Origin: Octopus vulgaris
Taxonomy: Eukaryota
Reading direction: 5' to 3'
Length of the DNA stretch: 64,000 nucleotides
NCBI GenBank assembly: GCA_951406725.2
Contig: OX597814.1
Span: 11,408,001 to 11,472,000, forward strand
The translations under genes were made by a program, and so were the position numbers. Within the stretch, counting starts at the first letter, position 1; each line of letters starts with the position of its first letter. This document shows, piece by piece, positions 1-62,400 of the stretch. The notes beneath the pieces are model-generated. The model was not told the origin of the DNA. It worked only from the letters and a program-made list of their open reading frames with translations, and searched no databases.

Positions 1-1540
1 CCATTTCCGGTTTTACTCATCCACAGCCATCTTTTTTCTCTGTCTGTCTTACCTTCAACATCCCTATGAAATTCACCATGCATTCTTTTCTTTATCCATC
101 AATTTTCAGTTCAATCGTTTTGAATTGCTTGTACAGTGCTTTATCTTTACAGTCTTTCATCCTGCACAAACTTGACCTTCTTACTTCTAATAATAGCGGT
201 TCTGTGGCATTTTTACATACCATGCTATGTTGTTTTCTTCTGCTCTCATGTTGTGTTCCCCTTCCCCTCTTTTTTCTTGGTACATACAGTCTGTCTGTGT
301 CACTTTTTGGGAGGAGTGTCCCATATCTAGTTAGCAACTTCCTTGTCTTTCTATCTAAGCTGTTTAGTTCGTCTACTGTCCATGCGATTACCCCTGCTCC
401 ATATCTAAGGAGTGAAACCGCCCAAATATTGAAAGCTTCATTCTTATACCGTCCGTTTAATTTCGACGTAAAGATCAGTCTCTCTCTGCGCAAGTACTCC
501 ATCTTACATTTTTCTGTCATTTCTTTCTCCATCAATTTGTCTATTTCCAAAATCCCAAGTACTTATAGCCCGTCTCTTCTATCTGCTTCATAACCGCCCC
601 GTCCATACATTTGATTTTTTCCTCTCTTCAAGACTAACACACCACACTTTCTCAGTCCGAACTCCTTTCTGATATCAGCACTGATACACCGTATCAACGA
701 GGGAACTGATGTGGGCTTCATCTTTACCTTAAAGTTTGAGATCATCCATGAATAACAAATGGTTGACTTTTTGTTGGCGGCCTTTGAATACATACTCAGC
801 TTTTGCTTTCCTCAGTATCAGTGATAGTGGCATCAAGCATAGTACAAAGACCAGTGGGGACAGGCAGTCCCCTTGGAAGATGTCCGACCTAATTTCTACT
901 GTCCCTAAACTTCTTCCGTATGCTGTCAGGTCCGTCCTCTAATTTGCCATATTTTTTCCAAGCAATCGCACAACATTCGATGCAATACCAAATAGGTTCA
1001 TACACTCTATAATCCAAGAATGTGGAATCATATCGTACGCCTTACGATAGTTGATCCATGACATGGCTAATTTACTTCCTCTTGCAGTTTCTAAGTACAG
1101 TTTTGTCTATCAGGAGTCGATCCTCCGCGCTTACGCTTGCAACCCTTCTGCTCATGTGACAGGACTCCATTTTTTTCCAATGTTCGTGCATTGACTCTGC
1201 GAGTATTCCAGTCAATAACTTCCACATAAGTGACAAAAAGGATATCGGCCTGTAATTGTCTACCGTATTGCCTTTTTCGATGTTTTTCAAGCACAGCACT
1301 ATCCTACCCAATGTCAACCACTCTGGTGTTACTTGGTCAGCATTTAACTAGGTGTTGAGTTGCGCAGCTATTCGTGCATGATATTCACCAAATCTTTTGA
1401 TCCAGTAGCCTTGAACTCCATCTGGTCCCGGCTACTTCTAGTTGCTCATTTTTTTTTTTTTGCTAATTTCCTAACTGAAATGACTAGTTCTGCCTGTTTT
1501 GGACAGACTACTGTTTGCTTCAGTTCTTATAACCATCTAG
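1..1540 (-). pseudogene. Degenerate R4/Dong-like (RLE-type) non-LTR retrotransposon RT fragment
   Basis: Frameshifted minus-strand motifs: DNYRPIS..WKLLT, HEQKGC, INYRKAYDMIPHSWI, IFQGDCLSP, LFMDDLKL, FGLRKC, DRLYVPRKKRGRG. Confidence 0.8.
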
Positions 1541-3650: not shown

Positions 3651-3759
3651 GAGATCTGCATTTCGCGAGGAAGCAGAAATACCCATGGTTGATATCAGGG
3701 TGCGCAGTGAAACCATCGTGAGTGGGAGAGCCCAAACTGTTGTTACAACATCTTTCTAG
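3651..3759 (+). CDS. Candidate terminal coding exon of an unidentified host gene
   Basis: Pyrimidine tract plus TACTCAC and ttccatacAG acceptor at 3650; open frame RSAFREEAEIPMVDIRVRSETIVSGRAQTVVTTSF*; AATAAA at 3776-3781. No homology recognised. Confidence 0.25.
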
Positions 3760-3880
3760 TTGAGCGACACTATGAAATAAAACGTATAGTTTTACGTGAT
3801 CGCGGGTTATCTCGCTTCAGCCCGTCCCTTGGTACTAATCGCAGACTACGAGAATGGTACTCCTGATGTACAAGCATTTA

Positions 3881-4296
3881 CCTATTTCTTTACTACCCAC
3901 AAGGGGCTAAACACAGAGAGGACAAACAAGGACAGACAAACGGATTAAGTCGATTAGATCGACCCCAGTGTGTAACTGGTACTTATTTAATCGACCCCGT
4001 AAGGATGAAAGGCAAAGTCGACGTCGGCGGAATTTGAACTCAGAACGTGGCGACAGACGAAATACCTATTTCTTTACTACCCACAAGAGGCTAAACACAG
4101 AGAGGACAAACAAGGACAGACAAATGGATTAAATCGATTATATTGACCCTAGTGCGTAACTGGTACTTATTCAATCGACCCCGAAAGGATGAAAGGCAAA
4201 GTTGACCTCGGCGGAATTTGAACTCAGAACGTAGCGGCAGACGAAATACCGCTAAGCATTTCGCCCTGCGTGCTAACGATTCTGCCAGCTCGCCCC
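3881..4296 (-). mobile_element. tRNA-headed SINE array (two units) with Tx1-like 3' tail
   Basis: A-box-like TGGCAGAATCG and B-box-like GAGTTCAAATT on the minus strand; ~180-bp unit repeated; same family at 17985, 20386 and 62010. Confidence 0.8.
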
Positions 4297-4893
4297 CTTA
4301 ACAGCATTTACCATTATGGCGTACGCATATCTCTTCATAGTGACCTTATTCGTCATTCTATTTACTGAAAGTTTTTGGCAATGGAAAAGTAGTGACATGT
4401 GCAGACCCAACCATTTGGAAGTGCAAAGTAAGTTACAACAACTTTCATCAGCCACATGTGCTCCAAACTATGCAAATCTGCAACGAGACTAAATAGTTGT
4501 CTGAGAGGTCATGGATGGAAAGTTAGAAACGCTATTGAGAACGTTAAAGCACGAGGAGACGACAATCATTTGTGAAGATGGAGCAATCACCATAAGTATA
4601 CGTATGTGTAAGTATCTGTGTGTGTGTGTTTGTGTGTGTGTGTGTCTGTGTGTCTGTCGAAATGCTGGTGATTTAATCATTTAGCAAGTCTTCCGGGATC
4701 CAAAGTTACATACAGATCAGCCTTATTCCTTCTTCGTGGTCAAAGAATATTTTTAGCGGTGAACATTCTGTTGTAAAAATTCGGTTAAGGTCTCTTGATC
4801 TTGGGATTAACGTTCTTCCTTTTCTTCCACCCGTCCCTTTCCTCTTCTGACCAAATCATGTAAAAGAAATTTATCATACGTATTTGTTATAAT

Positions 4894-8628: not shown

Positions 8629-8672
<44 letters not shown>

Positions 8673-8674
<2 letters not shown>

Positions 8675-10185
8675 TAAACGTTAAAAAAAACACAACCTGG
8701 GACAAGAACGTGAAACATTTTGAAGACGGCAAAAAAACACACAGACGGGACTTTCGAAGCTCTCAGTCATCAGTCAAGAACCAGATCATCTTCGCAATTT
8801 CGGCTGATTAATCTTGAGATTGCTCCAATCTGGGCAGCCAACCAAGGGAAATCTAAGCCAATCGCATTAGATTCCTTGGAAGAAAACCTCGAAAGTATAC
8901 AACACGGTGACGGAAAAACGGACGATGTTACACGAAAAAAAAAAAAATTCAAAAATACGTAAAAACAATAAAGAAAGCACGGATAAAAATACAAGATAGC
9001 GTAAAAACAATCATAACAAAACCAGGACGTCTCTCCTACTTTTCTCTGCCTTCACCCTTTTCACTCCCCTTGTTCTGTCTCTTTCCCTCTTTTTCTTCTC
9101 CTCCCTTGTTCCCCTTCTTTCTTTCTCTCTTCCTCCGTCCCTCCTCTCCCACATTTCTCTGCCTCTCAGACCTTATACCCCACTTGACCTGTCCCTTTCC
9201 CTCTCCTGCTTCTCTCTTCATCTGTCCCTTCCTCCTTTTTGTGCTCACGTGACCAGCTAGCTACTACTGCCTTTCGCATCAAGTAGTTGGCTTGACCACA
9301 CGTATGTGTTTGTGCTCCGTTTGCCTTCAGGCATTTTTACCACAGCCAGCCCTATACTCAACTCGTCCTGTCGAAAGACGCTTGTCCTGACGTCCTGGTT
9401 TTGTTATGATTGTTTTTACGCTATCTTGTATTTTTATCCGTGCTTTCTTTATTGTTTTTACGTATTTTTGAATTTTTTTTTTTTTCGTGTAACATCGTCC
9501 GTTTTTCCGTCACCGTGTTGTATACTTTCGAGGTTTTCTTCAAGGAATCTAATGCGATTGGCTTAGATTTCCCTTGGTTGGCTGCCCAGATTGGAGCAAT
9601 CTCAAGATTAATCAGCCGAAATTGCGAAGATGATCTGGTTCTTGACTGATGACTGAGAGCTTCTGTGTGTTTTTTTGCCGTCTTCAAAATGTTTCACGTT
9701 CTTGTCCCAGTTTGTGTTTTTTTTAACGTTTACCTATATACATGGCGGCTACGTACCCTACCCTTTAACCCTATACTGTAAGTATATTACTCTCTAACAT
9801 TGGTACGACTCTACTACTCTGTCTCTTTTTCCCCTCTCTCCTACTTTTCTCTGCCTTCACCCTTTTCACTCCCCTTGTTCTGTCTCTTTCCCTCTTTTTC
9901 TTCTCCTCCCTTGTTCCCCTTCTTTCTTTCTCTCTTCCTCCGTCCCTCCTCTCCCACATTTCTCTGCCTCTCAGACCTTATACCCCACTTGACCTGTCCC
10001 TTTCCCTCTCCTGCTTCTCTCTTTATCTGTCCCTTCCTCCTTTTTGTGCTCACGTGACCAGCTAGCTACTACTGCCTTTCGCATCAAGTAGTTGGCTTGA
10101 CCACACGTATGTGTTTGTGCTCCGTTTGCCTTCAGGCATTTTTACCACAGCCAGCCCTATACTCAACTCGTCCTGTCGAAAGACG

Positions 10186-10188
<3 letters not shown>
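8673..10188. repeat. Composite inverted plus direct repeat (A-B-A'-c-B) between (TA)n tracts, probably Penelope-like pLTR remnants
   Basis: A 8673-9031 is the reverse complement of 9389-9734; B 9031-9383 recurs at 9836-10188; near-identical duplicated ORFs in the track. Confidence 0.85.
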
Positions 10189-14208: not shown

Positions 14209-14420
<212 letters not shown>

Positions 14421-14489
14421 TGTTTCTTTATTAGCCACACAGGGCTGCACACAGATAGAACAAATTACAAGGTAGAGCTTTTCTTTTGG

Positions 14490-14522
<33 letters not shown>

Positions 14523-15445
14523 AAGGGGGAGTTTCGATCAAAAGGGATCGTAAAAGGAGAGAAAGAGGACAAAAAAAAAGGGGGTTAAAAAAAAGGGGGA
14601 GAGGAAAAAAAAATTGATCAATAGGGATCGTTATCACAGAAATGTCAATATGAAGTGTAAAGGGGAGGACAGGTGAGGTTTACCCGTGGAAAGAAAAGCC
14701 TACGGAAAAGACCACGGTAACCTCGGTCAATGAAGTCACATTTTATATTTCTTTTTTTTTTTTTTTTTTTTTTTGCAAGTAAGCAACTCTCTGTTTTCGA
14801 TTTCTGGGTTCATAGGACTATGCTCAAGGTGGCTTCGTCATTCATACGTGCCATTCTTGCTACATTCACCCATCTTTTTTTAAAACATTCGCTAGACAAA
14901 ACTTGCCTCTCTACTCTCACTTTCCTTTTCAAGTGGTACTTGAAGAAGTTGATGAGAGATTGACCAGAGAGGAAAGTGTTTGTCTCCAATCCTTTCAGAC
15001 GCGTCCACCAGATACATTCTTTCGCCATAGCCACAAGGATGATGAAAATAGCTCTTCCTTCCCGTTTGAAGGAAGGAGGCGTGACAATATTGACGATAGA
15101 CTCAGCTGATAAACCGACTCGTCCCACACGTGACAGCAGTTGTTCGACATAAGCCCACAGGTCGGAAATTGTTGGACACTGAACGAGTGCGTGCAGAACG
15201 GTTTCGTCGCTCTGACCGCATCTCGGGCAGGTCGGCCCCGTGTTTCTCGAGCCGTGTCTGTAGAGCTTATCCCGAACGGGTAGCGCTTCTCGGTAGCACT
15301 GCCAGGCCAGGGATCTCTGGAAGTTGTCCATGGGCCCTGGCCCGAAAGTCGTCCTGAACAGGCGGGTCAGGTACTCCTCGTCGACGTCCAGGTTCGCCCC
15401 GAGCTCGTCGTCGTACCTCCCCTCCACTAAACCCCTATAGAATGC
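14421..15445 (-). mobile_element. 5'-truncated Tx1-like LINE copy A
   Basis: Encodes ORF2 C-terminus (AFYRGLVEG...CPRCGQSDETVLHALVQC...) highly similar to 32631-33270; 3' UTR ending AATAAAGAAAC; (GATA)n on both sides. Confidence 0.95.
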
Positions 15446-15482
<37 letters not shown>

Positions 15483-15483
15483 T

Positions 15484-15518
<35 letters not shown>

Positions 15519-15519
15519 T

Positions 15520-15554
<35 letters not shown>

Positions 15555-15555
15555 T

Positions 15556-15642
<87 letters not shown>

Positions 15643-15643
15643 T

Positions 15644-15739
<96 letters not shown>

Positions 15740-15740
<1 letters not shown>

Positions 15741-16800
15741 GTTTCTTTATTGGCCACACAGGGCTGCACACAGATGGGACAAGTTACAAGGTAGAGCTTT
15801 TCTTTGGGGGACGAAAAAAAACAAAAAACAAAAGACAAAAGAAACAAAAAAAAGGTGGCGTAGGTTTTCGATCAAAAGGGATCGTAAAAGGGAAAAAAAG
15901 AACAAAGAATAACAAAAAAAAAATAAATAAAAAAAATAAAAAACGAAAAGGAACAAAAGAAAAGAGAAATGAAAAAAAGAAGAAAAAAGGGGAAAAAAAC
16001 GATCAATAGGGATCATGTATCACAGTGTAATGATGTATGGTGTAAAGGGGAAAGCAAGTAAGGTTTATCCGTGGGAAGAAAAGCCTACGAAAAAGACCAC
16101 CGTAACCTTGGTCAATATTGTTATATGTTACCACATTTGTTTGCAAGTGGGTAACCCTCTGTTTTCAATTTCTGGGTTCATAGGATTATGCTCAAGGTGG
16201 CTTCGTCATTCATACGTGCCATCCTTGCTACATTCACCCATCTTTTAAAACATTCGCTAGACAAAACTTGCCTCTCTACTCTCACTTTCCTTTTCAAGTG
16301 GTACTTGAAGAAGTTGATGAGAGATTGACCAGAGAGGAAAGTGTTTGTCTCCAATCCTTTCAGACGCGTCCACCAGATACATTCTTTCGCCATAGCCACA
16401 AGGATGATGAAAATAACTCTTCCTTCCCGTTTGAAGGAAGGAGGCGTGACAATATTGACGATAGACTCAGCTGATAAACCGACTCGTCCCACACGTGACA
16501 GCAGTCGTTCGACATAAGCCCATAGGTCGGAAATTGTTGGACACTGCACGAGTGCGTGCAGAACGGTTTCGTCGCTCTGCCCGCATCTCGGGCAGGTCGG
16601 CCCCGTGTTTCTCGAGCCGTGTCTGTAGAGCTTATCCCGAACGGGTAGCGCTTCTCGGTAGCACTGCCAGGCCAGGGATCTCTGGAAGTTGTCCATGGGC
16701 CCTGGCCCGAAAGTCGTCCCGAACAGGCGGGTCAAGTACTCCTCGTCGACCTCCAGGTTCGCCCCGAGCTCGTTGTCGTACCTCCCCTCCACTAATCCCC
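15740..16800 (-). mobile_element. 5'-truncated Tx1-like LINE copy B
   Basis: Same ORF2 C-terminus as copy A with a different 3' UTR; separated from copy A only by (GATA)n 15446-15739. Confidence 0.95.
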
Positions 16801-16859
<59 letters not shown>

Positions 16860-17635: not shown

Positions 17636-17984
17636 TACTAATTGTTCATCCGTCCATCCACCCATCCATCCATACATCCACCCGTCCGCCTGTCTGACTG
17701 TTTGTTTATCGATCGGACTGTGACTATAAATAGAAGATACATACTCAACATGTTACGCAGTGGAAATGAGCAAGAAACAACGGAGTTGCTTGCATTTCCT
17801 CGAGCCGGCAGAAGCCAGACAAAATACTTACCAGCATTTCGTCCGTCTTTACGTTCTGATTTCAAATTCCACCAGAGTCGACTTTGCTTTTCATCTTTCA
17901 CTTGGACGGTAAAATGAGTCGCAGTTGGATAATGGAGCCAGAGTAATCGACCATCGCTCTCCCACAAATTCCCAACGAATTATT

Positions 17985-18580
17985 TGAGCTGGCAGAATCG
18001 TTAAACACGCAGGGTGAAATGCTTAGCGGTATTTCGTCTGCCGCTACGTTCCGAGTTCAAATTCCGCCGAGGTCGACTTTGCCTTTCATCATTTCGGGGT
18101 CGATTAAATAAGTACCAGTTACGCGCTGGGGTCGATATAATCGACTTAATCCGTTGGTCTGTCCTTGTTTGTCCTCTCTGTGTTTAGCCCCTTGTGGGTA
18201 GTAAAGAAATAGGTATTACGTTCCGAGTTCAAATTCTGCCGAGGTCGACTTTGCCTTTTATCATTTCGGGGTCGATTAAACAAGTACCAGTTACGCACTG
18301 GGGTCGGTATAACCGACTTAATCCGTTTGTTTGTCCTTGTTTGTCCCCTCTGTGTGTAGCCCCTTTTGGGCAATAAAGAAATAAGAATCGTTAACACACA
18401 GGGTGAACTGCTTAGAAGTATTTCGTCTGCCGCTACGTTCCGAGTTCAAATTCCGCCGTGGCCGAATTTGCCTTTCATTCTTTCGGGGTCGATAAATTAA
18501 GTACCAGTGAAACATTGAGGTCGATGTAATCGACTCGTCTCTACCCCCAAAATGGCTGCCCTTGTGGCAAAATTTGAAAC

Positions 18581-18583
<3 letters not shown>
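17985..18583 (+). mobile_element. Tandem/nested SINE array (two Tx1-like tails, last unit ending in (TTA)n)
   Basis: Repeated GAGTTCAAATTCCGCCGAGGTCGACTTTGCCTTTCATC core; a further degenerate copy at ~17795-17975. Confidence 0.8.
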
Positions 18584-18640
<57 letters not shown>

Positions 18641-18647
18641 CATTATT

Positions 18648-19264
<617 letters not shown>

Positions 19265-19306: not shown

Positions 19307-19463
19307 CCTGTCTTTACGTTCTGAGTTCAAATCTCGCCGAGGTTGACTTTGCCTTTCATCCTTTCAGGGTCGATAAATTAAGAACCAGTTACGTATTGGG
19401 AGTCGATCTAACTGACTGGCCCCCTCCCCCAAAATTTCGGGCCTTGTACCTAGAGTAGAAAAG

Positions 19464-19766: not shown

Positions 19767-20385
19767 TACACAAGCCGCACAGTATTCCCATATATGTATA
19801 TGTCGTGATGTTCCTATGATCTATATAATTGTACATCTGCGTCGATACAATATATAATATTTTCTCCCCGTGGAACTTGGTTGTCTGGTAACCAGTGTTT
19901 TTTTTTGTGTTTTTGTTTTCCTTTTTGTTTTTTCTCTCTTTTCGCATTTTGTTTGTTTTGACGTGGTTTTGTGCGAGTCAACAATTCTTGATAAAATTTC
20001 AACTGAATAATCCAAATTAAATCTGTATACAAAAACTTTACAAATATTTAAGCCGATAATCCAGCGTTAAAACCAACATATCATTCTTGAAGCGTCATAT
20101 ACTTATATTAAAACATCTGTTTGACAACCATAACAAAGTAGCCCTCTATCTCTCTCTCCTTCCGTCTCTCTCTCTCTCTTTCTTTCTCCTTCTCTCCCAC
20201 ACACACACTCTCTCTCTCATTCTTTCTCTCCACCCCCACCCCCACCCCCTATCTATTTATATTTTACAATAGTCTGCAATATTTATTGGTCTTTTGTACG
20301 TCTGACATTGGAAATTATATACCCTTCCTTGCAAAATGTTTTCAGTAGCTTTCTTTTTCGTCCGAATATCGTGTTTTGTCGTAGA

Positions 20386-20805
20386 AGGCGGCGAGCTGGC
20401 AGAGTCATTAGCACGCCGGGCGAAATGTTTAGCGGTATTTCGTCTGCCCGTTACGTTCTAAGTTCAAATTCCGCCGAGGTCGACTTTGCCTTTCATCCTT
20501 TCGGGGTCGATTAAATAAGTACCAGTTACGCACTGGGATCGATATAATCGACATAATCCGTTTGTCTGTCCTTGTTTGTCCCCTCTGTGTTTAGCCCCTT
20601 GTGGGTAGTAAAGAAATAGGTATTTTGTCTGCCGCTACGTTCTGAGTTCAAATTCCGCCGAGGTCAACTTTGCCTTTCATCCTTTCGGCGTCGATTAAAT
20701 AAGTACCAGTTACGCACTGGGGTCGATATAATCGACTTAATCCGTTTGTCTGTCTTTGTTTGTCCTCTCTGTGTTTAGCCCCTTGTGGGTAGTAAAGAAA
20801 TAGGT
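20386..20805 (+). mobile_element. SINE array (head plus two units) with Tx1-like tail
   Basis: AGGCGGCGAGCTGGCAGAGTC head; two units each ending GTAAAGAAATAGGT. Confidence 0.82.
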
Positions 20806-32240: not shown

Positions 32241-32307
<67 letters not shown>

Positions 32308-32630
32308 CAGATAGATAGATAGATAGCTAGATAGATAACTTTTTATTGTAGCCACACAGGGCTAAACACAGAATAAAAATGGACGAAATACAATGTAGAA
32401 TTTTTCTTTTCGAGGTGGGATGGGTGGGGCAAGAAAAAAAAAAAAAAAAAAGTTTGATCAATAGGGATCTGTGGGTTGTGTGGTGTATAAAAAAGGAATA
32501 TATATATATAAGGTTCACAGTTTAGGTGTAGTCTTGGAAAGAAAAACCTACAAAAAAGACCAAGGTCACCTCAGGCAATTCGAAAAAGAACACATGAGTA
32601 AGTCGCCTTACTTCTCGTTGTCTCTTTTGG

Positions 32631-35600
32631 TTACAGATTTATGCTTAAAATAGTGTCGTCTTTCATACTGACCATTTTTGCCACTTTTACCCACTTTTTA
32701 TTAAAACATTCGTTCGACAAAGCCTTCCTCTCTATTCTCATCCTCCTTTTCAAGTGGTACTTGAAAAAGTTGACGAGAGACTGACCAGAGAGGAAGGTGT
32801 TTGTTTGCAGTCCTTTCAAACGCGTCCACCACACACATTCTTTCGCCATAGCCATCAGCGTAACGAAAACCGTTTTCCCTTCCCGTTTAAAGGAAGGTGG
32901 TGGAACAATATTCACAATAGACTCGGCCGATAGGCGAGCCTGACCTACACGTGACAACAGCTGTTCGACGAAGGACCACAGCTCTGAAATATCTGGACAC
33001 TGCACGAGTGCGTGCAGAACGGTTTCGTCGCTCTGACCGCATCTCGGGCAGGTCGGTCCGGTGATGGTTTTCGAACCGTGTCTGTAGCTCTTCTCTCGAA
33101 CAGGTAGTGCGTCTCGATAGCACTGCCAAGCCAGGGATTTCTGGAAGTTATCCATAGGCCCCGGCCCGAACGTCGTCCTGAACAGGCGGGTTAGGAATTC
33201 CTCGTCGACGCCCAGGTTTGCCCCGAGTGTGTCGTCGGACCTCCCCTCCACTAGTCCTCTATAGAACGCTTTAGTCGTTTGGAAATTGCACAAGTTTGAC
33301 CCCGGTCGGCAGAGCTGCTGTAGAGCTTGGCGACACTCTCGGTGCCAATCGCCCAGTTTCGGTCTCTTTTTGATCCACGTTTGCAGTTCGGTCAGTGAGA
33401 CGAGCTGCGGGAAGTCGCGCCTCACAAACGGCGCCCACACCTGTTCACCGTCGTCGATGAATTTCCAGAGATGTCGCAGTCTCAGCGCATGCCTGCGCAT
33501 CATCAACCACGGCATGCCCAGTCCTCCATTCAACGGATGTTGACAGCAAATGGACTTCCTCACCATCGGAACGCCACCTTTCCACAGGAAGCGGAAGAGT
33601 ATGCGTTCCAGTTTGGTGATGGTGGCGTCGGGACAAGGTACGACGGTCAGGCGGTAATCGATGACGGATGCGATGTACGCGTTCGCCACCTCCGCCCGGC
33701 CTTTTAGAGACAGCTTTCTCTCGGCCCATGTTTGGCTGAGAGCGACCACTCTACTCGTGATCTCGTCCCAGTTCTTATCCATTTGGAGGTCCGGACTGAA
33801 CCAGACCCCGAGCAATTTAACCGGTCCGTCCGTCCAGCGTCCCACTACTGAGCCGCAGTCGGACGGCATGGGCTTGCTTCTCCAGGTGTCGAGTAGCAAA
33901 CCCACTGACTTTTCCGGGTTAATCTTTGCTCCCGTCACCGTTTCATATTTTCTTAGTGTCTCGCCGACCAGCTCGATGTGCTGGTAGCTCGACACTATGA
34001 CGGTGACATCGTCCGCATATGCCGACACGCTCGTCCCGCAACCCAGTTCCCGTGGGATGCCCCTCAGTGTCGCCAACTTCCGCAGTAGCGGCTCGAGAGT
34101 CAATACATACAGAAGCGCCGACAGGGGACACCCCTGACGGACCGAACGCGTGATGTCAAACGGTTTAGACAGGTGACCGTTCACCCGAATCACCGATCGG
34201 ATGCCGCTATACAAGGCAGCGATCCAACCGCGGAAGACGGGACCGAAGCCAGCCGCCCTGAGGACGGCCGCCAAGTACCGATGGTCGACCCTATCGAAGG
34301 CTTTAGACTGATCCAAATTTATCAGCGCCCCACCCATGCCAGGATCCTTAACTACCCTGTCCACAATGTAGCGCATCAGATGGAGGTTGTCATGTATGGT
34401 TCTGCCCGGCACGGCGCATGTTTGCGCCCTGTCGACCAGTTTACCAATGACAAGCGCCAACCTCTCGGCTATTACTTTGGCCAAAATTTTCAAATCTGCG
34501 TTGAGCAGAGTGATGGGCCTGAAATTATCTATAAAATTCCCCTTGTTTGAGTCTTTCTTCAGCAACGTCACTGCACCTCGGCTCACGAAACCGGGGATTC
34601 TCCCGTTTTGTTGCCAGTTGCAGTAGACTGATGCCAAGAGGTCGCCAAACAAGTCTGGCATTCGACAATACAGCTCGTAGGGTAAACCATCCAATCCAGG
34701 CGACTTATCCCTCGCGCAGCCCGCCATCGCATCCCACACGTCAGCGGCTGTGATGGGACTTTCACAACACTCCGCTTCTCTTGCCGAGAGCCGCGGCAGG
34801 TCGGTCAGGTAGGCACTGAAATCCATCCCTCGTTCCGACCCACCACTCGCACCAAACAGTCGAGCAAAGTGCTGTTGAAAGGCCTCACACATCCTTTCGG
34901 GTTCGAGTAAACTGCATCCCTGTTGATCTATTAGAGACCGAATGGTTGATCTGTTGCCACGCTGCGCCTCCGCTACCCGGGCCTCTCGCGCAGCTTCAAT
35001 CCCTTCGTTCCTTAAGGCACGCATTTTAGCTCTGACGACGCAACCTTCGTGCTTGGCGTTGAGGTGTTGGTCGAGGGCCATCCTCGCAGCCAGCACGTTG
35101 GTTGCGCTGCCAGTGGTAAGTGCCTCTTCTAGTTTCTTAACTAAGTCTCCCTCTACTCTATTTCGTTCTATCGCTAATTCCTTGCTAAACCTAATTGATT
35201 CCGATTTTATTGCCATTTTCAGGGCGTACCACCAGCGGTTGTTAACGACCGCTCCTGTCAGCGCCCTCTTAATTAACTCGCTAATCCGGTTCCTGTAAAC
35301 CTGTCGCACTAACAGCGACGTGTTCAGTTTCCAGTAACCGGGACCCTGCCTATGTGTTTTATCTAAGTCGAGCGTACACGTAACAAATTTGTGATCTGTG
35401 TAGCTGACTATTTTAAATTGTGGACATCCTACACTATCCCTATCCGCTGTCCTGCATAGAATTCTATCTAGATAAGATCTCGACGATCCGACGCGGTTTG
35501 TCCAAGTCCACGTTGGCACGTTCGGATGGTCGAGTCGGAACCTGTCAGACAAATGGAAACGTCTGAGCAGGTCTTTGAGGCTCTTACACCCCCTTCTATT

Positions 35601-36080
35601 CCTATCCCTTCCCACATAATCTAGATGCGTGTCCAAGGTAGCGTTCCAATCCCCTACTAACAGTAAAGGTCTAGACGTACCCAGGAAAACCTCTAGACGT
35701 CTGAAGAAATCCGCCCGACCCGTTAAGGACGGTGCATAAACTGCCATCAGACGGAATGCACACCCATTTCTGCCATCCACGTCCAAGACAACCAGCCTAC
35801 CCTCCGGGTCTAGGAATATTGCTCTTACTTTTACTTTTAGACTCTTTCGAAAAAGCACTGCAGTACCTCCACCACCCATGTTCGGCAGACAGGGAGAAAA
35901 ATAAATGTCAAATTGATTGCCAAACATGGACTCGAGGGCCCGCGGCTTACTGAGTCTGGTTTCGCTGATAGCTACTATATCCACGTCTAGTGACTTGATG
36001 TCGTTTAGAAGGTAACCTTGCTTCCAAGCCGACGCCAAGCCACGCGCATTCACACAACCTAATTTAAGCATACTTGACAT
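32631..36080 (-). CDS. Tx1-like ORF2: APE endonuclease - reverse transcriptase - C-terminal zinc finger (1149 aa)
   Basis: APE: NARGL, SETR, VYAP, GDWN, SYLDR, TDH; PGYWKLN; RT: SPGLDG, FRPITLLN, DQSKAFDRV, RQGCPLS, YADD; LSLKGRA; CPRC..ETVLHALVQC. Confidence 0.96.
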   Translation of the reverse strand: MSSMLKLGCVNARGLASAWKQGYLLNDIKSLDVDIVAISETRLSKPRALESMFGNQFDIYFSPCLPNMGGGGTAVLFRKSLKVKVRAIFLDPEGRLVVLDVDGRNGCAFRLMAVYAPSLTGRADFFRRLEVFLGTSRPLLLVGDWNATLDTHLDYVGRDRNRRGCKSLKDLLRRFHLSDRFRLDHPNVPTWTWTNRVGSSRSYLDRILCRTADRDSVGCPQFKIVSYTDHKFVTCTLDLDKTHRQGPGYWKLNTSLLVRQVYRNRISELIKRALTGAVVNNRWWYALKMAIKSESIRFSKELAIERNRVEGDLVKKLEEALTTGSATNVLAARMALDQHLNAKHEGCVVRAKMRALRNEGIEAAREARVAEAQRGNRSTIRSLIDQQGCSLLEPERMCEAFQQHFARLFGASGGSERGMDFSAYLTDLPRLSAREAECCESPITAADVWDAMAGCARDKSPGLDGLPYELYCRMPDLFGDLLASVYCNWQQNGRIPGFVSRGAVTLLKKDSNKGNFIDNFRPITLLNADLKILAKVIAERLALVIGKLVDRAQTCAVPGRTIHDNLHLMRYIVDRVVKDPGMGGALINLDQSKAFDRVDHRYLAAVLRAAGFGPVFRGWIAALYSGIRSVIRVNGHLSKPFDITRSVRQGCPLSALLYVLTLEPLLRKLATLRGIPRELGCGTSVSAYADDVTVIVSSYQHIELVGETLRKYETVTGAKINPEKSVGLLLDTWRSKPMPSDCGSVVGRWTDGPVKLLGVWFSPDLQMDKNWDEITSRVVALSQTWAERKLSLKGRAEVANAYIASVIDYRLTVVPCPDATITKLERILFRFLWKGGVPMVRKSICCQHPLNGGLGMPWLMMRRHALRLRHLWKFIDDGEQVWAPFVRRDFPQLVSLTELQTWIKKRPKLGDWHRECRQALQQLCRPGSNLCNFQTTKAFYRGLVEGRSDDTLGANLGVDEEFLTRLFRTTFGPGPMDNFQKSLAWQCYRDALPVREKSYRHGSKTITGPTCPRCGQSDETVLHALVQCPDISELWSFVEQLLSRVGQARLSAESIVNIVPPPSFKREGKTVFVTLMAMAKECVWWTRLKGLQTNTFLSGQSLVNFFKYHLKRRMRIERKALSNECFNKKWVKVAKMVSMKDDTILSINL

Positions 36081-36145
36081 TTACGAAAATTGTGTTTTAC
36101 ACACTATATTAGAAGAGACAAGAGGCAAGAAGTGAGGTCACTTAC

Positions 36146-38029
36146 TCATTTTAAAAGTTTCATTTTTTCTTCTTCTTCTTTTGTATCGTTTTTGATGAGG
36201 TGTTTGTATAGTTTTTTCGACAGGTATCGTTGATACCCGCCTACCGCATTCGGAAATAATGTTTTCAGTATGTGGTGTTGTGCTTGTGTTATGTGTAAAA
36301 TTCTGATGTGTTTCGGTGGTGTGGTGTGCGGATGATTGTTTGTCTTAAAGTCATCTTCACAGACGACCATGTTAGATTTGATGTAGTCCATTAATTCTTT
36401 ATCGTCTGTGTCTATTGCAGTTAGTTGTGTGTGTGGTTTTACGGGTTCATTACTTTTTTGATTGTCTAGGGGGATGTTGTCCTGAGTTAGATATCTCCCT
36501 GCTTTAATTCCTTGTTTGGTGGATTTTTTGGATCTTTTTCTTTTACCCCCTGTGGCTATTTGCCATTCCGTCGAACTTTCGTCGTCCGACGTATCAGTAT
36601 GGGGTAGAGGCAAAACATTTGCATTACTATGTATGCTTGTATAAATTGTTGATGTTTTGTGCGGTGTTTGTGTTGTTGTGGTGTTAGGGGTAGCATTTGT
36701 CTTCTCGTCAGTGTTTTCTGTCTTTTTAATTGTCGTCCTGGCTGTGGGCGTGGGTCTATTTTTTGTTAATTCAACAGGTTTAATTGGTTGTGAAGTCAAC
36801 GGTGATTGTGTTGGTACTGTTTTTCTTGGTGATGTTGTTGGGGTTTGTTTGCTGGTTTGTTGTTTTTCTTGGCGTTGTTCCATAATTGAGTGTGTTGGTG
36901 TTGGTGTTGGTGTTGGCAACAAAGGGATTTTATTTGTTTTCTGAATTGTTCTTTCTTGTTTTTTCTGTACCAGATCGCACTTGGCAATCAAATGTTCGGG
37001 GCTGCCACATTTGTAGCATCTAGGCTTTTTGCCTTCTGCCATAACATATAGGCATTGCCCATTCTCCAAGTATATCTTGTCGGGTAGGCTCTCGATAGAG
37101 GCCCCCTCAATCTGGATGGTCACTACTACTGTTTTTCCACCCCAATTGTCGTTTAGGTACACGGCTGTTTCTAGAATATTGATCTTTTTCAAGTGGTAAC
37201 AGATTGCCCCTGTTATCCATTTGTTCGGCATATCGGGGGGTACATTTCTGATAGTAATTCTACTCACCCTCTGGTTTTTATAATAAGGGACCATGATGAT
37301 TTCATCATTTCCCAGAGACTCAGTAGAGTGAGCTTTTGCCACTTCCTGGTTAGGGAAGCGGACCACTACTGTGTTAAACTGGGGACCCCAGTTTATATAC
37401 TCTTTTTCTTTCATTATGTTTTTTAAACATTTCTCCACATCAGTTTTTGTAATCTGTTCATTTGGTTTTTTGTTTTTTCTAATAATTTTATATACAATTG
37501 TCTTATTTTCAATTTCTTGTTTTATATGTTGAGGTGTATGCAGGACTAAATCTTGTCCACGGGTTGTAAAGAGAGCTCTTGTTTCTATGAGCTCTTCATT
37601 TGTGAATGTAACAATCTCCTTTTTCTGGCGAAGAATATCTGCGAAATTTACTGTTGTTGACTTTTTTGTATTGGCATCTTCACTATTAGATAGTTCATTT
37701 TTATTGTTGTTCTTGTTGTTGCTGTTGTTTTTGTCAATAGTTTTCGTTTCAGTTTTATTTTTATCATTTATGTTGGTCGTGGTAGTGGTGGTGGTGGTGG
37801 TGGAGGTGGTGGTGGTAGCAGTTGTTGTCTCGTGGTTGCTGTTGTTAGTGGTGGTGGTGGCGGTGGTGACAGGGCTATTAACGCACGTGGTTGCAGCGTT
37901 CCTTTCACCGAATTTCACGTTGGCATTTTCCGTGCGAACGTTCTTTTTTTTCTCTGTCGTTTCCAGACTAGGAAAATGTTGTTCCAAAAAAGAACGCGAC
38001 CAGCGTTCAACAATAAAATTTTTAGACAT
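36146..38029 (-). CDS. Tx1-like ORF1, gag-like nucleic-acid-binding protein (627 aa)
   Basis: CCHC knuckle CYKCGSPEHLIAKC, ITIRNVPP motif, low-complexity T/N-rich tracts, basic GGKRKR; 65 nt upstream of ORF2. Confidence 0.9.
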   Translation of the reverse strand: MSKNFIVERWSRSFLEQHFPSLETTEKKKNVRTENANVKFGERNAATTCVNSPVTTATTTTNNSNHETTTATTTTSTTTTTTTTTNINDKNKTETKTIDKNNSNNKNNNKNELSNSEDANTKKSTTVNFADILRQKKEIVTFTNEELIETRALFTTRGQDLVLHTPQHIKQEIENKTIVYKIIRKNKKPNEQITKTDVEKCLKNIMKEKEYINWGPQFNTVVVRFPNQEVAKAHSTESLGNDEIIMVPYYKNQRVSRITIRNVPPDMPNKWITGAICYHLKKINILETAVYLNDNWGGKTVVVTIQIEGASIESLPDKIYLENGQCLYVMAEGKKPRCYKCGSPEHLIAKCDLVQKKQERTIQKTNKIPLLPTPTPTPTHSIMEQRQEKQQTSKQTPTTSPRKTVPTQSPLTSQPIKPVELTKNRPTPTARTTIKKTENTDEKTNATPNTTTTQTPHKTSTIYTSIHSNANVLPLPHTDTSDDESSTEWQIATGGKRKRSKKSTKQGIKAGRYLTQDNIPLDNQKSNEPVKPHTQLTAIDTDDKELMDYIKSNMVVCEDDFKTNNHPHTTPPKHIRILHITQAQHHILKTLFPNAVGGYQRYLSKKLYKHLIKNDTKEEEEKMKLLK

Positions 38030-38229
38030 TTTCTAATGTCGAGAAGAAAATAACAGAAATGAAATGGGGTCGAAACTGCCCCTAGGGGCGAATTCCTCCC
38101 TTGGAAAAGCACTCAAATGAAAGTTGGTTGCCTTACACACCTTATTTGCAAAAATCTACACAAAAATTGGCCTATAAATAGTCAAAATAAATGATTACCT
38201 TCGGAGCTGAAACGACATCACATCCGTCA

Positions 38230-38270
<41 letters not shown>

Positions 38271-38290
38271 CAGATAGATAGATAGATAGC

Positions 38291-38389
<99 letters not shown>

Positions 38390-39132
38390 TTAAGTTTCTT
38401 TATTGGCCACACAGGGCTGCACACAGATGGGACAAGTTACAAGGTAGAGCTTTTCTTTTGGGGGATGAAAAAACAAAAAACAAAAGAAAAAAAAGGGGGG
38501 ATGGCGTAGGTTTTCGATCAAGAGGGATCGTAAAAGGGAAGAAAAGAACAAAATAAATAAATAAATAAATAAAAAAAAAAATAAAAAATAAAAAGAATAA
38601 AAAAAGAAAAAGAAAAGGAACAAAAGAAAAGAGAAATGAAAAAGAAGAAAAAAGGGGGAAAAAAAGGGGAAGAGGAAAAAAAACGATCAATAGGGATCGT
38701 GTATCACAGTGTTATGATATATGGTGTAAAGGGGAAAGCAAGTAAGGTTTATCCGTGGGAAGAAAAGCCTACGAAAAAGACCACGGTAACCTTGGTCAAT
38801 ATTGTTATATGTTACCACATTTGTTTGCAAGTGGGTAACCCTCTGTTTTCAATTTCTGGGTTCATAGGATTATGCTCAAGGTGGCTTCGTCATTCATACG
38901 TGCCATCCTTGCTACATTCACCCATCTTTTTTTAAAACATTCGCTAGACAAAACTTGCCTCTCTACTCTCACTTTCCTTTTTAAGTGGTACTTGAAGAAG
39001 TTGATGAGAGGTTGACCAGAGAGGAAAGTGTTTGTCTCCAATCCTTTCAGACGCGTTCACCAGATACATTCTTTCGCCATAGCCACAAGGATGATGAAAA
39101 TAGCTCTTCCTTCCCGTTTGAAGGAAGGAGGC
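38390..39132 (-). mobile_element. 5'-truncated Tx1-like LINE copy D
   Basis: 3' UTR nearly identical to copy B; PPSFKREGRAIFIILVAMAKECIW; head-to-tail with the full-length copy across (GATA)n. Confidence 0.95.
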
Positions 39133-39179
<47 letters not shown>

Positions 39180-45965: not shown

Positions 45966-46799
45966 GTATGTATCTGTGTGTGTGCGTGTGTTTTTTTTAA
46001 ACAGACATATATACATATATGTGAATGTGTGCTCCAATGGATATATATTATAATTATTAGATGTTTTGTTTACTGAGCGATGTCAAATAAAACTTATCCC
46101 ATTAATTCTTGTGAATTTCATCGATTTAGCTGCCTTTTTGTTGACTTGGTTAACTCGTGAATACGGCTGTGTCCAAGTATTTGTGCGTCTATGAACGTAT
46201 ATATATAAGTGTAGTTATGGCTGCTTAATGTGTGCATGCCGCTTTGCTAATATGTATTCGCGAAGGTTATTAATACGCACATATACATACGTACGTACGC
46301 ACAGACACACAAGTACACTTTCATACATTTATATGATGTTATTTTTTTCCCTTTATATATATATATATATGGAGGGGATAAATAATATGCACAAACACAT
46401 ATATATATAGACACACATATACGCACGTGCATATTAATGTTATTAATGTGTGATCTAAATGAGTAAGTTACGGGCTTGTGAATGTACGTATGTGTGCACA
46501 CGCATGTCTACGCTTAGAACGAACGCCCACACATAAATGAATGCGAACTGCATTGAAAAAACATACATTCATATTCTATATATTATCTGGCAGGATCGTT
46601 TTTTCTAGTTGTCTAGCAAATAGAGAAATATATGTGGACACATGATATAATTCCTTCAGCAGAACTGCAAAGAGAGGCTTTGTAAAGAATTACTACTTGT
46701 ACACACCGTATTGAAGAAAGCAGTGACACAAGGAAGCAGGGTAAATATTGGTTTGAAATGTTGGCACAAGGCCAGCAAGCTTGTGAAAGACCACGAGAC

Positions 46800-53123: not shown

Positions 53124-53525
53124 GTAGGAGTGGCTGTGTGGTAAGTAGCTTGCTTACGAACCACATGGTTCCGGGTTCAGTCCCACTGCGTGGCACCTTG
53201 GACAAGTGTCTTCTACTATAGCCTCGGGCCGATCAAAGCTTTGTGAGTGGATTTGGTAGACGGAATCTGAAAGAAGCCCGTTTATATATGTATATATGTA
53301 TGTGTGTGTATATGTTTGTGTGTCTGTGTTTGTACCCCCAACATCGCTTGACAACCGATGCTGGTGTGTTTACATCCTCGTAACTTAGCGGTTCGGCAAA
53401 ATAGACCGATAGTATAAGTACTAGGCTTACAAAGAATAAGTCCTGTGGTCAATTTGCTTGACTACAGACGGTGCTCCAGCATGGCCACAGTCAAATGACT
53501 GAAACAAGTAAAAGAGTAAAAGAGT
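53124..53525 (+). mobile_element. tRNA-derived SINE with internal microsatellite and CR1/L2-like tail
   Basis: A box TGGCTGTGTGG, B box GGGTTCAGTCC, CCTTGGACAAGT CORE-like motif, tail GGTGCTCCAGCATGGCCACAGTC..GACTGAAAC(AAGTAAAAG)n. Confidence 0.85.
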
Positions 53526-58733: not shown

Positions 58734-59065
58734 GCATATATATACATATATACATGCATATATGTATATATATGAATATGTATATGTACATACATAATTA
58801 TACGCACATACGTACATATATATATGTGCATGTATGCATACATAGACACATACATATATGCACGTATGTACACACACATACATATATATATATGTATGTA
58901 TGTATGTACATATGCATATCCATATATATATATGAAGCCGATTTATTCAGCTAAAACCTTCAAGGCTGTCACCCAGCAGGGTTGCAGTTCAATAAGTGAA
59001 ACAAGCAAAAAGTAAGGCAGACATACATACACACAAGTGTATATATGTGTATGTGTGCATGCATA

Positions 59066-61490: not shown

Positions 61491-62009
61491 TGCATACATG
61501 TATGTACGTTTAATAACGTATCTGTTCACTTTTAACACGTTTCGACAGATGATTCGAACGTGCATATCTGATCGCAATTGTTTTGCATCATCCAGGCTCC
61601 CTTTATCGAATGTGTTATGACCACACATCTTCTAAAGAGAGGGCGATGTTCTCCGATGACGGCAAACAACAGCAATCAGATATTCACGTTCGAGTCTGCC
61701 GGAACGTACTAAAAATTAAAACATACGTATTTTTCACTAGTTTCCTTTAAAGGCAAGATCCTCCAATAAAAGAAAGGAAACGAACATAGTTTTGCTGATA
61801 GTATCGGAGTTAGTTCTCTGCTTCGTTGATTTTTAGATTTTAAACCCCTGTAAAGGATGTTGTTATTCTAATTACAGGTGTAGAAGTATCATTCACAGCT
61901 ATTCAAGTCTTTTGACACCCTGTATCACTGCATGTGTATGTATATGTATTTGTGTATATGCGTCTGTGTATATGCGTATGTGTGTGCGCATGCGTGTGTG
62001 TGTGATGTG

Positions 62010-62400
62010 AACTGGCAGAATCGTTATCACGCTGGGCGAAATGCGTAGCCGTATTTCGTCTGCCGTTACGTTCTGAGTTCAAATTCCGACGAAGTCGACT
62101 TTGCTTGTCATCCTTTCGGGGTCAATAAATTAAGTACCAGTTACACAATGGGGTTGATATAATCGACTTAATCCGTTTGTCTGTCCTTGTTTGTCCTCTC
62201 TGTGTTTAGCCCCTTGTGAGTAGTAAAGAAATAGGTATTTCGTCTGCCGCTACGTTCTGAGTTCAAATTCCGCCGAGGTCGACTTTGCCTTTGATCCTTT
62301 CGGGGTCGATTAAATAAGTACCAGTTACGCACTGGGGTCGATGTAATCGACTAAATCCCTTTGTCTGTCCTTGTTTGTCCCCTGTATGTTTAACCCCCTT
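62010..62400 (+). mobile_element. SINE array with Tx1-like tail
   Basis: Same head, core and tail as 20386-20805. Confidence 0.8.

What the first reader, a model, noticed from the sequence alone, without database searches (positions are those of the whole stretch)
3881..4296. Abundant SINE carries a Tx1-derived 3' tail
Seen: the SINE end TTTCTTTACTACCCACAAGGGGCTAAACACAGAGAGGACAAACAAGG (3885-3931) aligns with the Tx1 copy B end TTTCTTTATTGGCCACACAGGGCTGCACACAGATGGGACAAGTTACAAGG (15742-15791). It shares GGGCTAAACACAGA exactly with the full-length element. Established: SINEs borrow partner LINE 3' tails, most often from L2, CR1 or RTE; Tx1 partners are uncommon. Inference: this SINE is mobilised by a Tx1-family enzyme.
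Basis: partly seen in the sequence, partly recalled or inferred. Interest (0 to 1): 0.7.

Follow-up and report, generated by a model that had tools for sequence, protein, structure and literature searches.

The report
tRNA-type SINE with Tx1-like LINE tail
A short, abundant jumping element in what is probably an octopod genome ends in about 50 bases that match the ends of nearby Tx1-like retrotransposons, so it probably borrows their copying enzyme, a pairing rarely described for this retrotransposon group.

Summary
The element (3883-4302, minus strand, 10-bp target duplication) is a tRNA-type SINE with a duplicated 184-nt unit. Each unit ends in about 50 nt that align with the 3' ends of 4 of 4 L1/Tx1-group LINE copies in the window: 38 of 50 columns to copy B, z 4.9-11.9 in 28 of 28 intact-tail comparisons. 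It does not match the two other LINE ends tested. Mobilisation by a Tx1-type enzyme is likely (about 0.7) but not shown. The tail is only about 80% identical to either LINE subfamily present. All 4 LINE copies sit inside (TATC)n, and 0 of 4 SINE loci do, so the partner is probably an unseen sibling family or targeting is relaxed. Formal Tx1 membership could not be tested against named references. Sister SINE subfamilies with other tails keep the same small hairpin with compensatory changes, hinting that the whole family uses Tx1-type ends. A 2012 survey found L1-group tails in 3 of 58 SINE/LINE pairs, none in animals. My ten literature searches found no Tx1-tailed tRNA SINE, but Repbase and Dfam were not checked.

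The parts
3883..4302 (-). SINE copy of the finding: tRNA-like head followed by two 184-nt units (4067-4250 and 3883-4066, 92.9% identical); no run of 4 or more T
4303..4312 (-). Target site duplication, 5' copy (10 bp)
3873..3882 (-). Target site duplication, 3' copy (10 bp); its first four bases equal the bases that follow the tail at the internal junction
4207..4299 (-). tRNA-like head with A-box-like (4277-4287) and B-box-like (4213-4223) motifs. The box consensus is recalled; ARAGORN and Rfam found no tRNA
3948..4022 (-). Central body of the 3' unit (boundaries approximate), shared with sister SINE subfamilies that have other tails. Its resemblance to the Meta/MESC domain is recalled, not shown
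3883..3931 (-). LINE-homologous tail of the terminal unit
3895..3907 (-). Small hairpin in the tail: 4-bp stem, loop CTTGT, followed after about 7 nt by GAAA
4067..4115 (-). Second, internal copy of the LINE-homologous tail
32339..38230 (-). Full-length L1/Tx1-group LINE (copy C) inside (TATC)n. ORF1 36146-38032 has one CCHC knuckle; ORF2 32631-36080 has endonuclease, RT and a C-terminal CCHC; both frames are open; 3' tail 32339-32394
14421..15445 (-). 5'-truncated LINE copy A inside (TATC)n; tail 14421-14473
15740..16800 (-). 5'-truncated LINE copy B inside (TATC)n; tail 15742-15791
38391..39133 (-). 5'-truncated LINE copy D inside (TATC)n; tail 38394-38444
20385..20802 (+). Second quasi-dimeric SINE copy with two intact tails and a 12-bp flanking duplication
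17986..18383 (+). Third SINE copy. Its second tail is the closest to the LINE (87.5% to copy B). It runs directly into a sister-type unit (18384-18581) that ends in (ATT)n
62006..62400 (+). Fourth SINE copy; first tail intact, terminal tail degraded
18384..18581 (+). Sister SINE subfamily unit: same head and body, different tail with the same CTTGT hairpin, then (ATT)n
19308..19463 (+). 5'-truncated sister SINE with another tail variant, inside (ATT)n on both sides
46750..46776 (-). Isolated sister-type tail with the CTTGT hairpin

Best explanation
This is a tRNA-type SINE family whose last 50 or so bases came from the 3' end of a Tx1-type (L1-group) LINE, most likely by template switching or recombination at the end of the SINE body. 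The SINE is transcribed by Pol III from its internal boxes (inferred). The ORF2 protein of a Tx1-type element recognises the tail, probably through the small hairpin and the GAAA just before the end (inferred), and inserts the copy by target-primed reverse transcription, leaving 10-12 bp duplications (duplications shown in 2 copies). The working partner is probably a sibling Tx1-type family not present in the window. Alternatively it is one of the families seen, with its (TATC)n targeting lost because the SINE RNA lacks the repeat. Shown: homology, 3' anchoring, L1-group ORF2, target duplications. Inferred: direction of transfer, recognition mechanism, identity of the enzyme.
For: Tail homology is significant and specific: 28 of 28 intact-tail pairs at 1/2000 shuffles or fewer; the four best non-SINE hits among 4262 windows are the four LINE ends; no match to the CR1-like or Dong-like ends (415/2000 and 331/2000), while a second SINE family matches only the CR1-like end (0/2000), an internal positive control. 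The match ends at the last bases of both elements. The two LINE subfamilies (78-80% identical in the ORF2 end) keep the tail at 81-83% but the rest of the 3' UTR at only 67-71%, as expected for a cis element. That divergence is deeper than the spread of SINE units (84-96%), which favours LINE-to-SINE transfer. The SINE took only the stretch downstream of the long T runs of the UTR and has no T4 run in this copy, which fits Pol III transcription. A hairpin forms at the same place in 10 of 11 tails. Accepted SINE/LINE pairs in bivalves share 35-61 bp at 72-95% (PMC11481361), the same range as here.
Against: 0 of 4 SINE loci lie in (TATC)n (nearest array 1043-7284 bp away), against 4 of 4 LINE copies; target choice is mainly set by the endonuclease (PMC4494074). 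Tail identity to the LINEs present is only 75-82% for the main SINE type. The loop differs (CTTGT against CTGTGT), and in zebrafish L2 the loop sets specificity (PMC4176376). Tail folding is no better than shuffles (z -1.15 to +1.46 in 7 of 7), and 9-17% of random mutants of the LINE hairpin are as stable as the SINE's. LINE copies A, B and D are 98% alike and so look younger than the SINE units. No named Tx1 reference was available for the tree.
Confidence: 0.7

Rival explanations
1. The tail is Tx1-derived but is a relic or a mosaic. The SINE is actually moved by another LINE, the unknown partner of the (ATT)n-ending sister subfamilies, which reads the CTTGT hairpin that all subfamilies share.
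For: The loop CTTGT is shared with 3 sister tails and differs from the LINE loop. The stem covaries among SINE tails: 26 of 28 cells paired, 3 of 4 pairs changed on both sides. SINE insertion sites do not match the LINE target.
Against: The sequence on both sides of the hairpin matches the Tx1-type ends, including an exact 14-mer, which a foreign partner would not maintain. The sister layout (hairpin, about 7 nt, GAAA, microsatellite) is itself the layout of the Tx1-type ends. No other LINE end in the window scored against the sister tails.
Confidence: 0.15
2. The direction is reversed: an ancestral Tx1-type LINE captured the end of this SINE family in its 3' UTR, so the homology says nothing about who mobilises the SINE.
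For: The SINE family is abundant and has older, more diverged sister copies with a related hairpin.
Against: Both LINE subfamilies, about 20% apart, carry the tail at their very end and conserve it better than the rest of the UTR. No SINE body sequence lies upstream of the tail in any of the 4 LINE copies.
Confidence: 0.07
3. The partner is an L1-group LINE outside the Tx1 clade proper, so the mechanism holds but the name is wrong.
For: No named Tx1 sequence appeared among the hits listed in three homologue searches. The tree has no Tx1 reference.
Against: Microsatellite targeting in 4 of 4 copies, a CCHC-type ORF1 and the absence of a poly(A) tail fit Tx1 as described in PMC4494074 and PMC5203782.
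Confidence: 0.06
4. The similarity is chance or compositional convergence of T-rich then A-rich ends.
For: Both ends are low in complexity, and the match to the full-length copy alone is weak by blastn (E 0.024).
Against: Dinucleotide shuffles keep composition and never reached the score in 27 of 28 pairs; 4 of 4 LINE ends rank above all background windows.
Confidence: 0.02

Closest known systems
SINEU families with Tx1-Mar (crocodilians; Kojima 2015, PMC4494074)
   Same: SINEs inferred to be moved by Tx1-clade elements.
   Different: SINEU has U1/U2 snRNA heads and poly(A) ends; no LINE was found that shares the SINEU-1 3' end, and the link rests on shared targets. Here the head is tRNA-like, the link rests on a shared tail, and the targets differ.
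Maize ZmSINE2/ZmSINE3 with LINE1-1_ZM and Chlamydomonas SINEX-3_CR with L1-1_CR (Ohshima 2012/2013, PMC3472496, PMC3747384)
   Same: tRNA SINEs with an L1-group tail of 45-80 nt; a conserved terminal hairpin was reported for the monocot pair.
   Different: Those are plant and algal L1 lineages. This is an animal element whose LINE targets a microsatellite and has no poly(A) end.
Stringent SINE/LINE pairs of the L2, CR1, RTE and Nimb clades (UnaSINE/UnaL2; bivalve pairs in PMC11481361)
   Same: Same design: shared 35-61 bp tail at 72-95% identity, small stem-loop, tail exchange on a common body.
   Different: The partner clade; none of the four bivalve partner lineages is L1/Tx1.
MetaSINE/MESC superfamily (PMC4824008, PMC4758252) and the octopus OK/OR1/OR2 SINEs (Ohshima and Okada 1994, not seen)
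   Same: tRNA head followed directly by a conserved body with exchangeable tails; a cuttlefish MetaSINE is described. The sequence resemblance of the body to Meta is recalled.
   Different: MetaSINE partners were unknown in 2016 and later given as Nimb and CR1-Zenon in bivalves. Membership could not be shown: motif searches of the supplements found no informative match.
Kibi, Koshi and crocodilian microsatellite-specific Tx1 families
   Same: Tx1-clade elements inserted in microsatellites: (TC)n, (TTC)n, (TTCC)n, (TTTC)n.
   Different: The target here is (TATC)n/(GATA)n; no partner SINE is reported for them in the passages read.

Membership tests
tRNA-derived SINE | Short, non-coding, interspersed multi-copy element | tested here: met
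   4 loci of about 400 bp, units 84-96% identical
tRNA-derived SINE | Pol III A and B boxes in a tRNA-related head | tested here: inconclusive
   Box-like motifs at 4277-4287 and 4213-4223 (consensus recalled); no hit from ARAGORN or Rfam; no cloverleaf predicted
tRNA-derived SINE | Target site duplications from retrotransposition | tested here: met
   10 bp flush with both ends at 3.9 kb and 12 bp at 20.4 kb; not clear at the other 2 of 4 loci
tRNA-derived SINE | Transcription by Pol III | not testable with these tools
   Only indirect: no T4 run in 2 of 4 loci
Stringent SINE/LINE pair | Significant shared 3' terminal sequence | tested here: met
Stringent SINE/LINE pair | Conserved stem-loop in the shared tail | tested here: inconclusive
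   Hairpin at the same place in 10 of 11 tails, but the loop differs, folding z-scores are not significant, and 9-17% of random mutants keep equal stability. Covariation holds among SINE tails only
Stringent SINE/LINE pair | Same insertion-site signature as the partner | tested here: not met
   0 of 4 SINE loci against 4 of 4 LINE copies in (TATC)n; tested only for the two LINE subfamilies present
Stringent SINE/LINE pair | Tail-dependent trans-mobilisation by the LINE's ORF2p | not testable with these tools
   Needs a cell or in vitro assay
L1 group of non-LTR retrotransposons (the LINE) | APE endonuclease, RT and C-terminal CCHC in ORF2, closest to L1 among solved structures | tested here: met
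   Pfam PF03372, PF00078, PF13966; L1 ORF2p E 2.5e-58 over residues 7-874 against R2 at 1.6e-21
Tx1 clade (the LINE) | RT phylogeny nested with named Tx1 families | tested here: inconclusive
   The tree of 40 rows has no named Tx1 reference; ORF2 groups with an Argonauta protein (100/99), next to a group holding cuttlefish proteins
Tx1 clade (the LINE) | Target-sequence preference (common in the clade, not universal) | tested here: met
   4 of 4 copies flanked by (TATC)n on both sides
Tx1 clade (the LINE) | ORF1 of RRM/CCHC type rather than Transposase_22 | tested here: met
   One CX2CX4HX4C knuckle; Atlas neighbours carry zf-CCHC and ZCCHC3-like RNA-binding domains at 0.90-0.92 (a lead); no Pfam hit at E 0.001, so no Transposase_22; typing per PMC5203782
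MetaSINE/MESC superfamily | 66-bp Meta domain directly after the tRNA head | tested here: inconclusive

The most novel reading that the evidence does not exclude
The whole SINE family, both the form described here and the (ATT)n-ending sisters, rides on a set of Tx1-type families that recognise RNA stringently through a small hairpin plus GAAA end. It swaps tails to follow whichever family is active, and the form described here escaped the partner's microsatellite targeting because its RNA lacks the target repeat. This would be an animal case of stringent 3' recognition in the L1/Tx1 group and would make Tx1-type elements a main driver of the octopod SINE expansion.
Probability: 0.3. Interest if true: 0.8.

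Novelty: new variant of a known kind. Interest (0 to 1): 0.6.

Why it matters
L1-group LINEs are the exception to the rule that SINEs borrow LINE tails: only 3 of 58 surveyed pairs had L1 tails, all in plants or algae, and whether the ancestral L1 read its RNA stringently or loosely is stated as open (PMC3472496, PMC3747384). An animal SINE with a Tx1-type tail, next to an intact full-length element, makes that question testable with a 50-nt cis element and two open reading frames. It also separates RNA recognition from target choice, since SINE and LINE share a tail but not a target. SINEs make up 11.6% of the Octopus vulgaris genome and most recently active SINE families there are unclassified (PMC13282606), so a partner assignment would matter for cephalopod genome evolution if this window is indeed octopod.

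Tried and rejected
Chance match: rejected. Better match to another LINE in the window: the CR1-like end (56950-57030) and the Dong/R4-like end (18640-18720) do not match; the LINE fragment at 1-1431 has no 3' end in the window. tRNA identification of the head: ARAGORN found 0 genes in the window, Rfam gave 1 irrelevant hit at E 3.6, folding gave no cloverleaf. A strongly folded tail: not supported. Direct sequence homology of sister tails to the LINE ends: not significant (best 31/2000 among 20 pairs; best 10/2000 and 12/2000 among 15 pairs). The hairpin-plus-GAAA motif count (12 in the window against 0.91 +/- 0.98 in 100 shuffles) is partly circular, because the motif was defined from these sequences; it misses copy C and the 18.3 kb tail. 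Placing the LINE in Tx1 by tree: no named reference among the listed hits; the tree used 40 rows and left out P0086 and P0087 as too short. The cluster look-up for names of close relatives could not be made. Meta-domain assignment from supplements: no informative match. Albertin 2015 and a 2020 review of eukaryotic transposable elements were not held. No eukaryotic genome collection, Repbase or Dfam was available, so genome-wide copy number, other Tx1 families and other species stayed unchecked. The bacterial, phage and plasmid collections were not searched, being irrelevant here.

Full report
Check of the observation. All these elements read on the minus strand, so the matched stretches are their 3' ends. 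The SINE spans 3883-4302 and has a 10-bp target duplication flush with both ends. It consists of a head with A-box-like and B-box-like motifs (consensus recalled) and two 184-nt units that are 92.9% identical. The window holds 4 such loci, all quasi-dimers, 1631 bp in all.

Significance. The last 70 nt of 8 SINE units were aligned with the last 80 nt of 4 LINE copies. For the 7 intact tails, 27 of 28 pairs were reached by 0 of 2000 dinucleotide shuffles and 1 of 28 by 1 of 2000 (z 4.9-11.9). The degraded eighth tail was not significant. The alignment to copy B has 38 identities in 50 columns. A scan of 4262 windows ranked seven SINE tails first (215-265), then LINE ends A, D and B (144, 134, 134), the degraded SINE tail (130) and LINE end C (111), with background from 79 down. 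The tail does not match the ends of two other LINEs in the window (415/2000 and 331/2000). A second SINE family (53126-53520) matches only the LINE at 56950-58735 (0/2000) and neither Tx1-type end tested, which serves as an internal control. The labels CR1-like, Dong/R4-like and CORE-like for these control elements are recalled from motifs; only an RT domain for the 57 kb element comes from a call.

The LINE. Copy C (32339-38230) has two open frames. ORF2 carries endonuclease, RT and zinc-binding domains and is far closer to L1 ORF2p (E 2.5e-58) than to R2 (1.6e-21) among solved structures. ORF1 has one CCHC knuckle, and its Atlas neighbours carry zf-CCHC and ZCCHC3-like RNA-binding domains (a lead only). 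All 4 copies are flanked on both sides by (TATC)n and have no poly(A) tail. These features fit Tx1 as described in PMC4494074 and PMC5203782, but no named Tx1 protein appeared in the hits listed by three searches, and the 40-row tree cannot decide the clade. The closest relatives named from animals are from Argonauta hians (63-68%) and Acanthosepion pharaonis (51%), so the window is probably octopod; this is an inference. Copies A, B and D form one subfamily (98% alike in the ORF2 end) and C another (78-80% to them). The two subfamilies share the tail at 81-83% but the rest of the 3' UTR at only 67-71%, which suggests selection on the tail.

How it most likely works. The SINE body is shared with sister subfamilies up to a short palindrome, after which the tails diverge, so tails were exchanged on a common body. 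The Tx1-type tail is the stretch downstream of the long T runs of the LINE UTR, and the copy of the finding has no T4 run, as a Pol III transcript requires. A 3-5 bp hairpin forms at the same place in 10 of 11 SINE and LINE tails, followed by GAAA in all but copy C. By analogy with zebrafish L2, where ORF2p binds a tail stem-loop (PMC4176376), a Tx1-type ORF2p would bind this end and insert the SINE by target-primed reverse transcription. Homology, 3' anchoring and target duplications are shown; transcription, binding and the enzyme are inferred. I put Tx1-type mobilisation at 0.7.

Results against a simple pairing. The main SINE tail is 75-82% identical to the LINE ends present, about as far as the two LINE subfamilies are from each other; one SINE unit reaches 87.5%. 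No SINE locus (0 of 4) lies in (TATC)n, the nearest arrays being 1043-7284 bp away, although the window has 23 such arrays. One of these four loci ends in a sister tail and was probably inserted through it, so the fair count may be 0 of 3. The SINE loop is CTTGT and the LINE loop CTGTGT. Tail folding is not better than shuffles in 7 of 7 tails, and 9-17% of random mutants of the LINE hairpin are as stable as the SINE's. The direct partner is therefore probably a sibling family not in the window, or targeting depends on a repeat that the SINE RNA lacks.

An unexpected extension. Three sister tails with otherwise different sequence also end in a 4-bp stem, loop CTTGT, about 7 nt, then GAAA or CAAA; two of the three go on into (ATT)n. 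Across 7 SINE tails, 26 of 28 stem cells pair and 3 of 4 pairs have changed on both sides. The covariation score of 0.82 was reached by 0 of 500 shuffles and by none of six slid controls (at most 0.26), though the two pair-count measures were not significant (142/500 and 92/500) and the structure was derived from these sequences. Sister tails are not significantly similar to the LINE ends in plain sequence. Either all tails come from different Tx1-type families with different targets (the novel case), or the hairpin is read by another LINE (the main rival).

Comparison with what is known. A survey of 58 SINE/LINE pairs found 3 with L1-group tails, in maize and Chlamydomonas, and its table lists no Tx1 partner (PMC3472496 passages; PMC3747384 passages and part 1 of 2 of the tables section). 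Crocodilian SINEU is linked to Tx1-Mar by shared targets, and no LINE sharing the SINEU-1 end was found (PMC4494074, parts 1-4 of 5 read). A systematic Repbase comparison of SINEs and LINEs, focused on SINE bodies, has 0 occurrences of Tx1 in its main text (PMC5786205 passages). Bivalve SINE partners are CR1, CR1-Zenon, L2 and Nimb (PMC11481361 passages). A 2026 O. vulgaris annotation reports SINEs at 11.6% of the genome and 80 L1-Tx1 families but discusses no SINE partner in the parts read (PMC13282606, parts 1-2 of 3 and a supplement search). Passages only were seen of PMC4824008, PMC4758252, PMC3531059, PMC8967140, PMC5203782, PMC4176376, PMC5381603 and PMC10886601. Ten searches listed no paper whose title, abstract start or read passages describe a tRNA SINE with a Tx1 tail; most listed papers were not opened. 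Repbase, Dfam, Albertin 2015, Ohshima and Okada 1994 and Kojima and Fujiwara 2004 were not seen, and one supplement file in each of PMC4824008 and PMC4758252 could not be searched, so an earlier annotation of this family or its tail is quite possible.

Verdict. The feature is real and well supported as homology. The mechanism is a known one, a SINE borrowing a LINE tail, with an unusual partner group and a mismatch in targets. New variant of a known kind; interest 0.6.

Noticed in passing
window 53126-53520 (+) and 56950-58735 (-): A second SINE/LINE pair: a SINE with a CORE-like body (label recalled; further tails near 13.8, 27.3, 40.6, 59.0 and 63.8 kb) shares about 47 nt with the end of a CR1-like LINE (z 10.1, 0/2000). 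An isolated copy of that LINE end lies near 59.27-59.32 kb.
   Followed up: partly
window 14227-16858 and 32242-39179: The Tx1-type LINE targets (TATC)n/(GATA)n: 4 of 4 copies, arranged as two head-to-tail pairs (B then A, D then C) separated only by the repeat. One search listed no paper on a GATA-specific Tx1 by title.
   Followed up: partly
window 32631-38032 (-): The full-length element has two uninterrupted frames (628 and 1149 aa, stop to stop) and may be able to move.
   Followed up: partly
window 15438-15450 and 16800: Copies A and B are 5'-truncated within about 15 nt of the same ORF2 position, at a spot that resembles the target repeat, which suggests microhomology-guided 5' joining.
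   Followed up: no
window 3883-4302, 17986-18383, 20385-20802, 62006-62400: All 4 loci are quasi-dimers whose second unit starts inside the head at GGTAT, the same bases that follow the tail. No monomer of this tail type is in the window.
   Followed up: partly
window 17790-18650: A chain of four SINE units (old sister copy, two Tx1-tailed units, sister unit) ending in (ATT)n. The last three units share a private variant in the head, which suggests local duplication or one read-through transcript.
   Followed up: partly
window 18647-19140 (-): 3' fragment of a LINE with a restriction-like endonuclease motif (Dong/R4-like, label recalled) inside (TAA)n, back to back with sister SINEs of opposite orientation in the same repeat.
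   Followed up: partly
window 1-1431 (-): Degraded RT-encoding LINE fragment of another clade, running off the window; it and the 18.9 kb fragment both hit the same protein, P0090.
   Followed up: no
window 53410-53465 (+) against 3948-3995 (-): The CORE-like SINE has an internal segment that by eye resembles the body of the SINE of the finding, suggesting module exchange between the two families.
   Followed up: no
window 3651-3717 (+): Possible 67-nt exon between a pyrimidine-rich AG and GTGAGT just left of the SINE, which would then lie antisense in an intron. Read by eye.
   Followed up: no
window 8664-10188: A 368-bp inverted duplication (8664-9031 against 9389-9743, 96%) joined to a 354-bp direct duplication (9030-9383 against 9835-10188, 99.7%).
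   Followed up: no
protein P0147: A protein labelled as from a bacterial metagenome-assembled genome is 62% identical to the LINE ORF2; probably animal DNA in that assembly.
   Followed up: no
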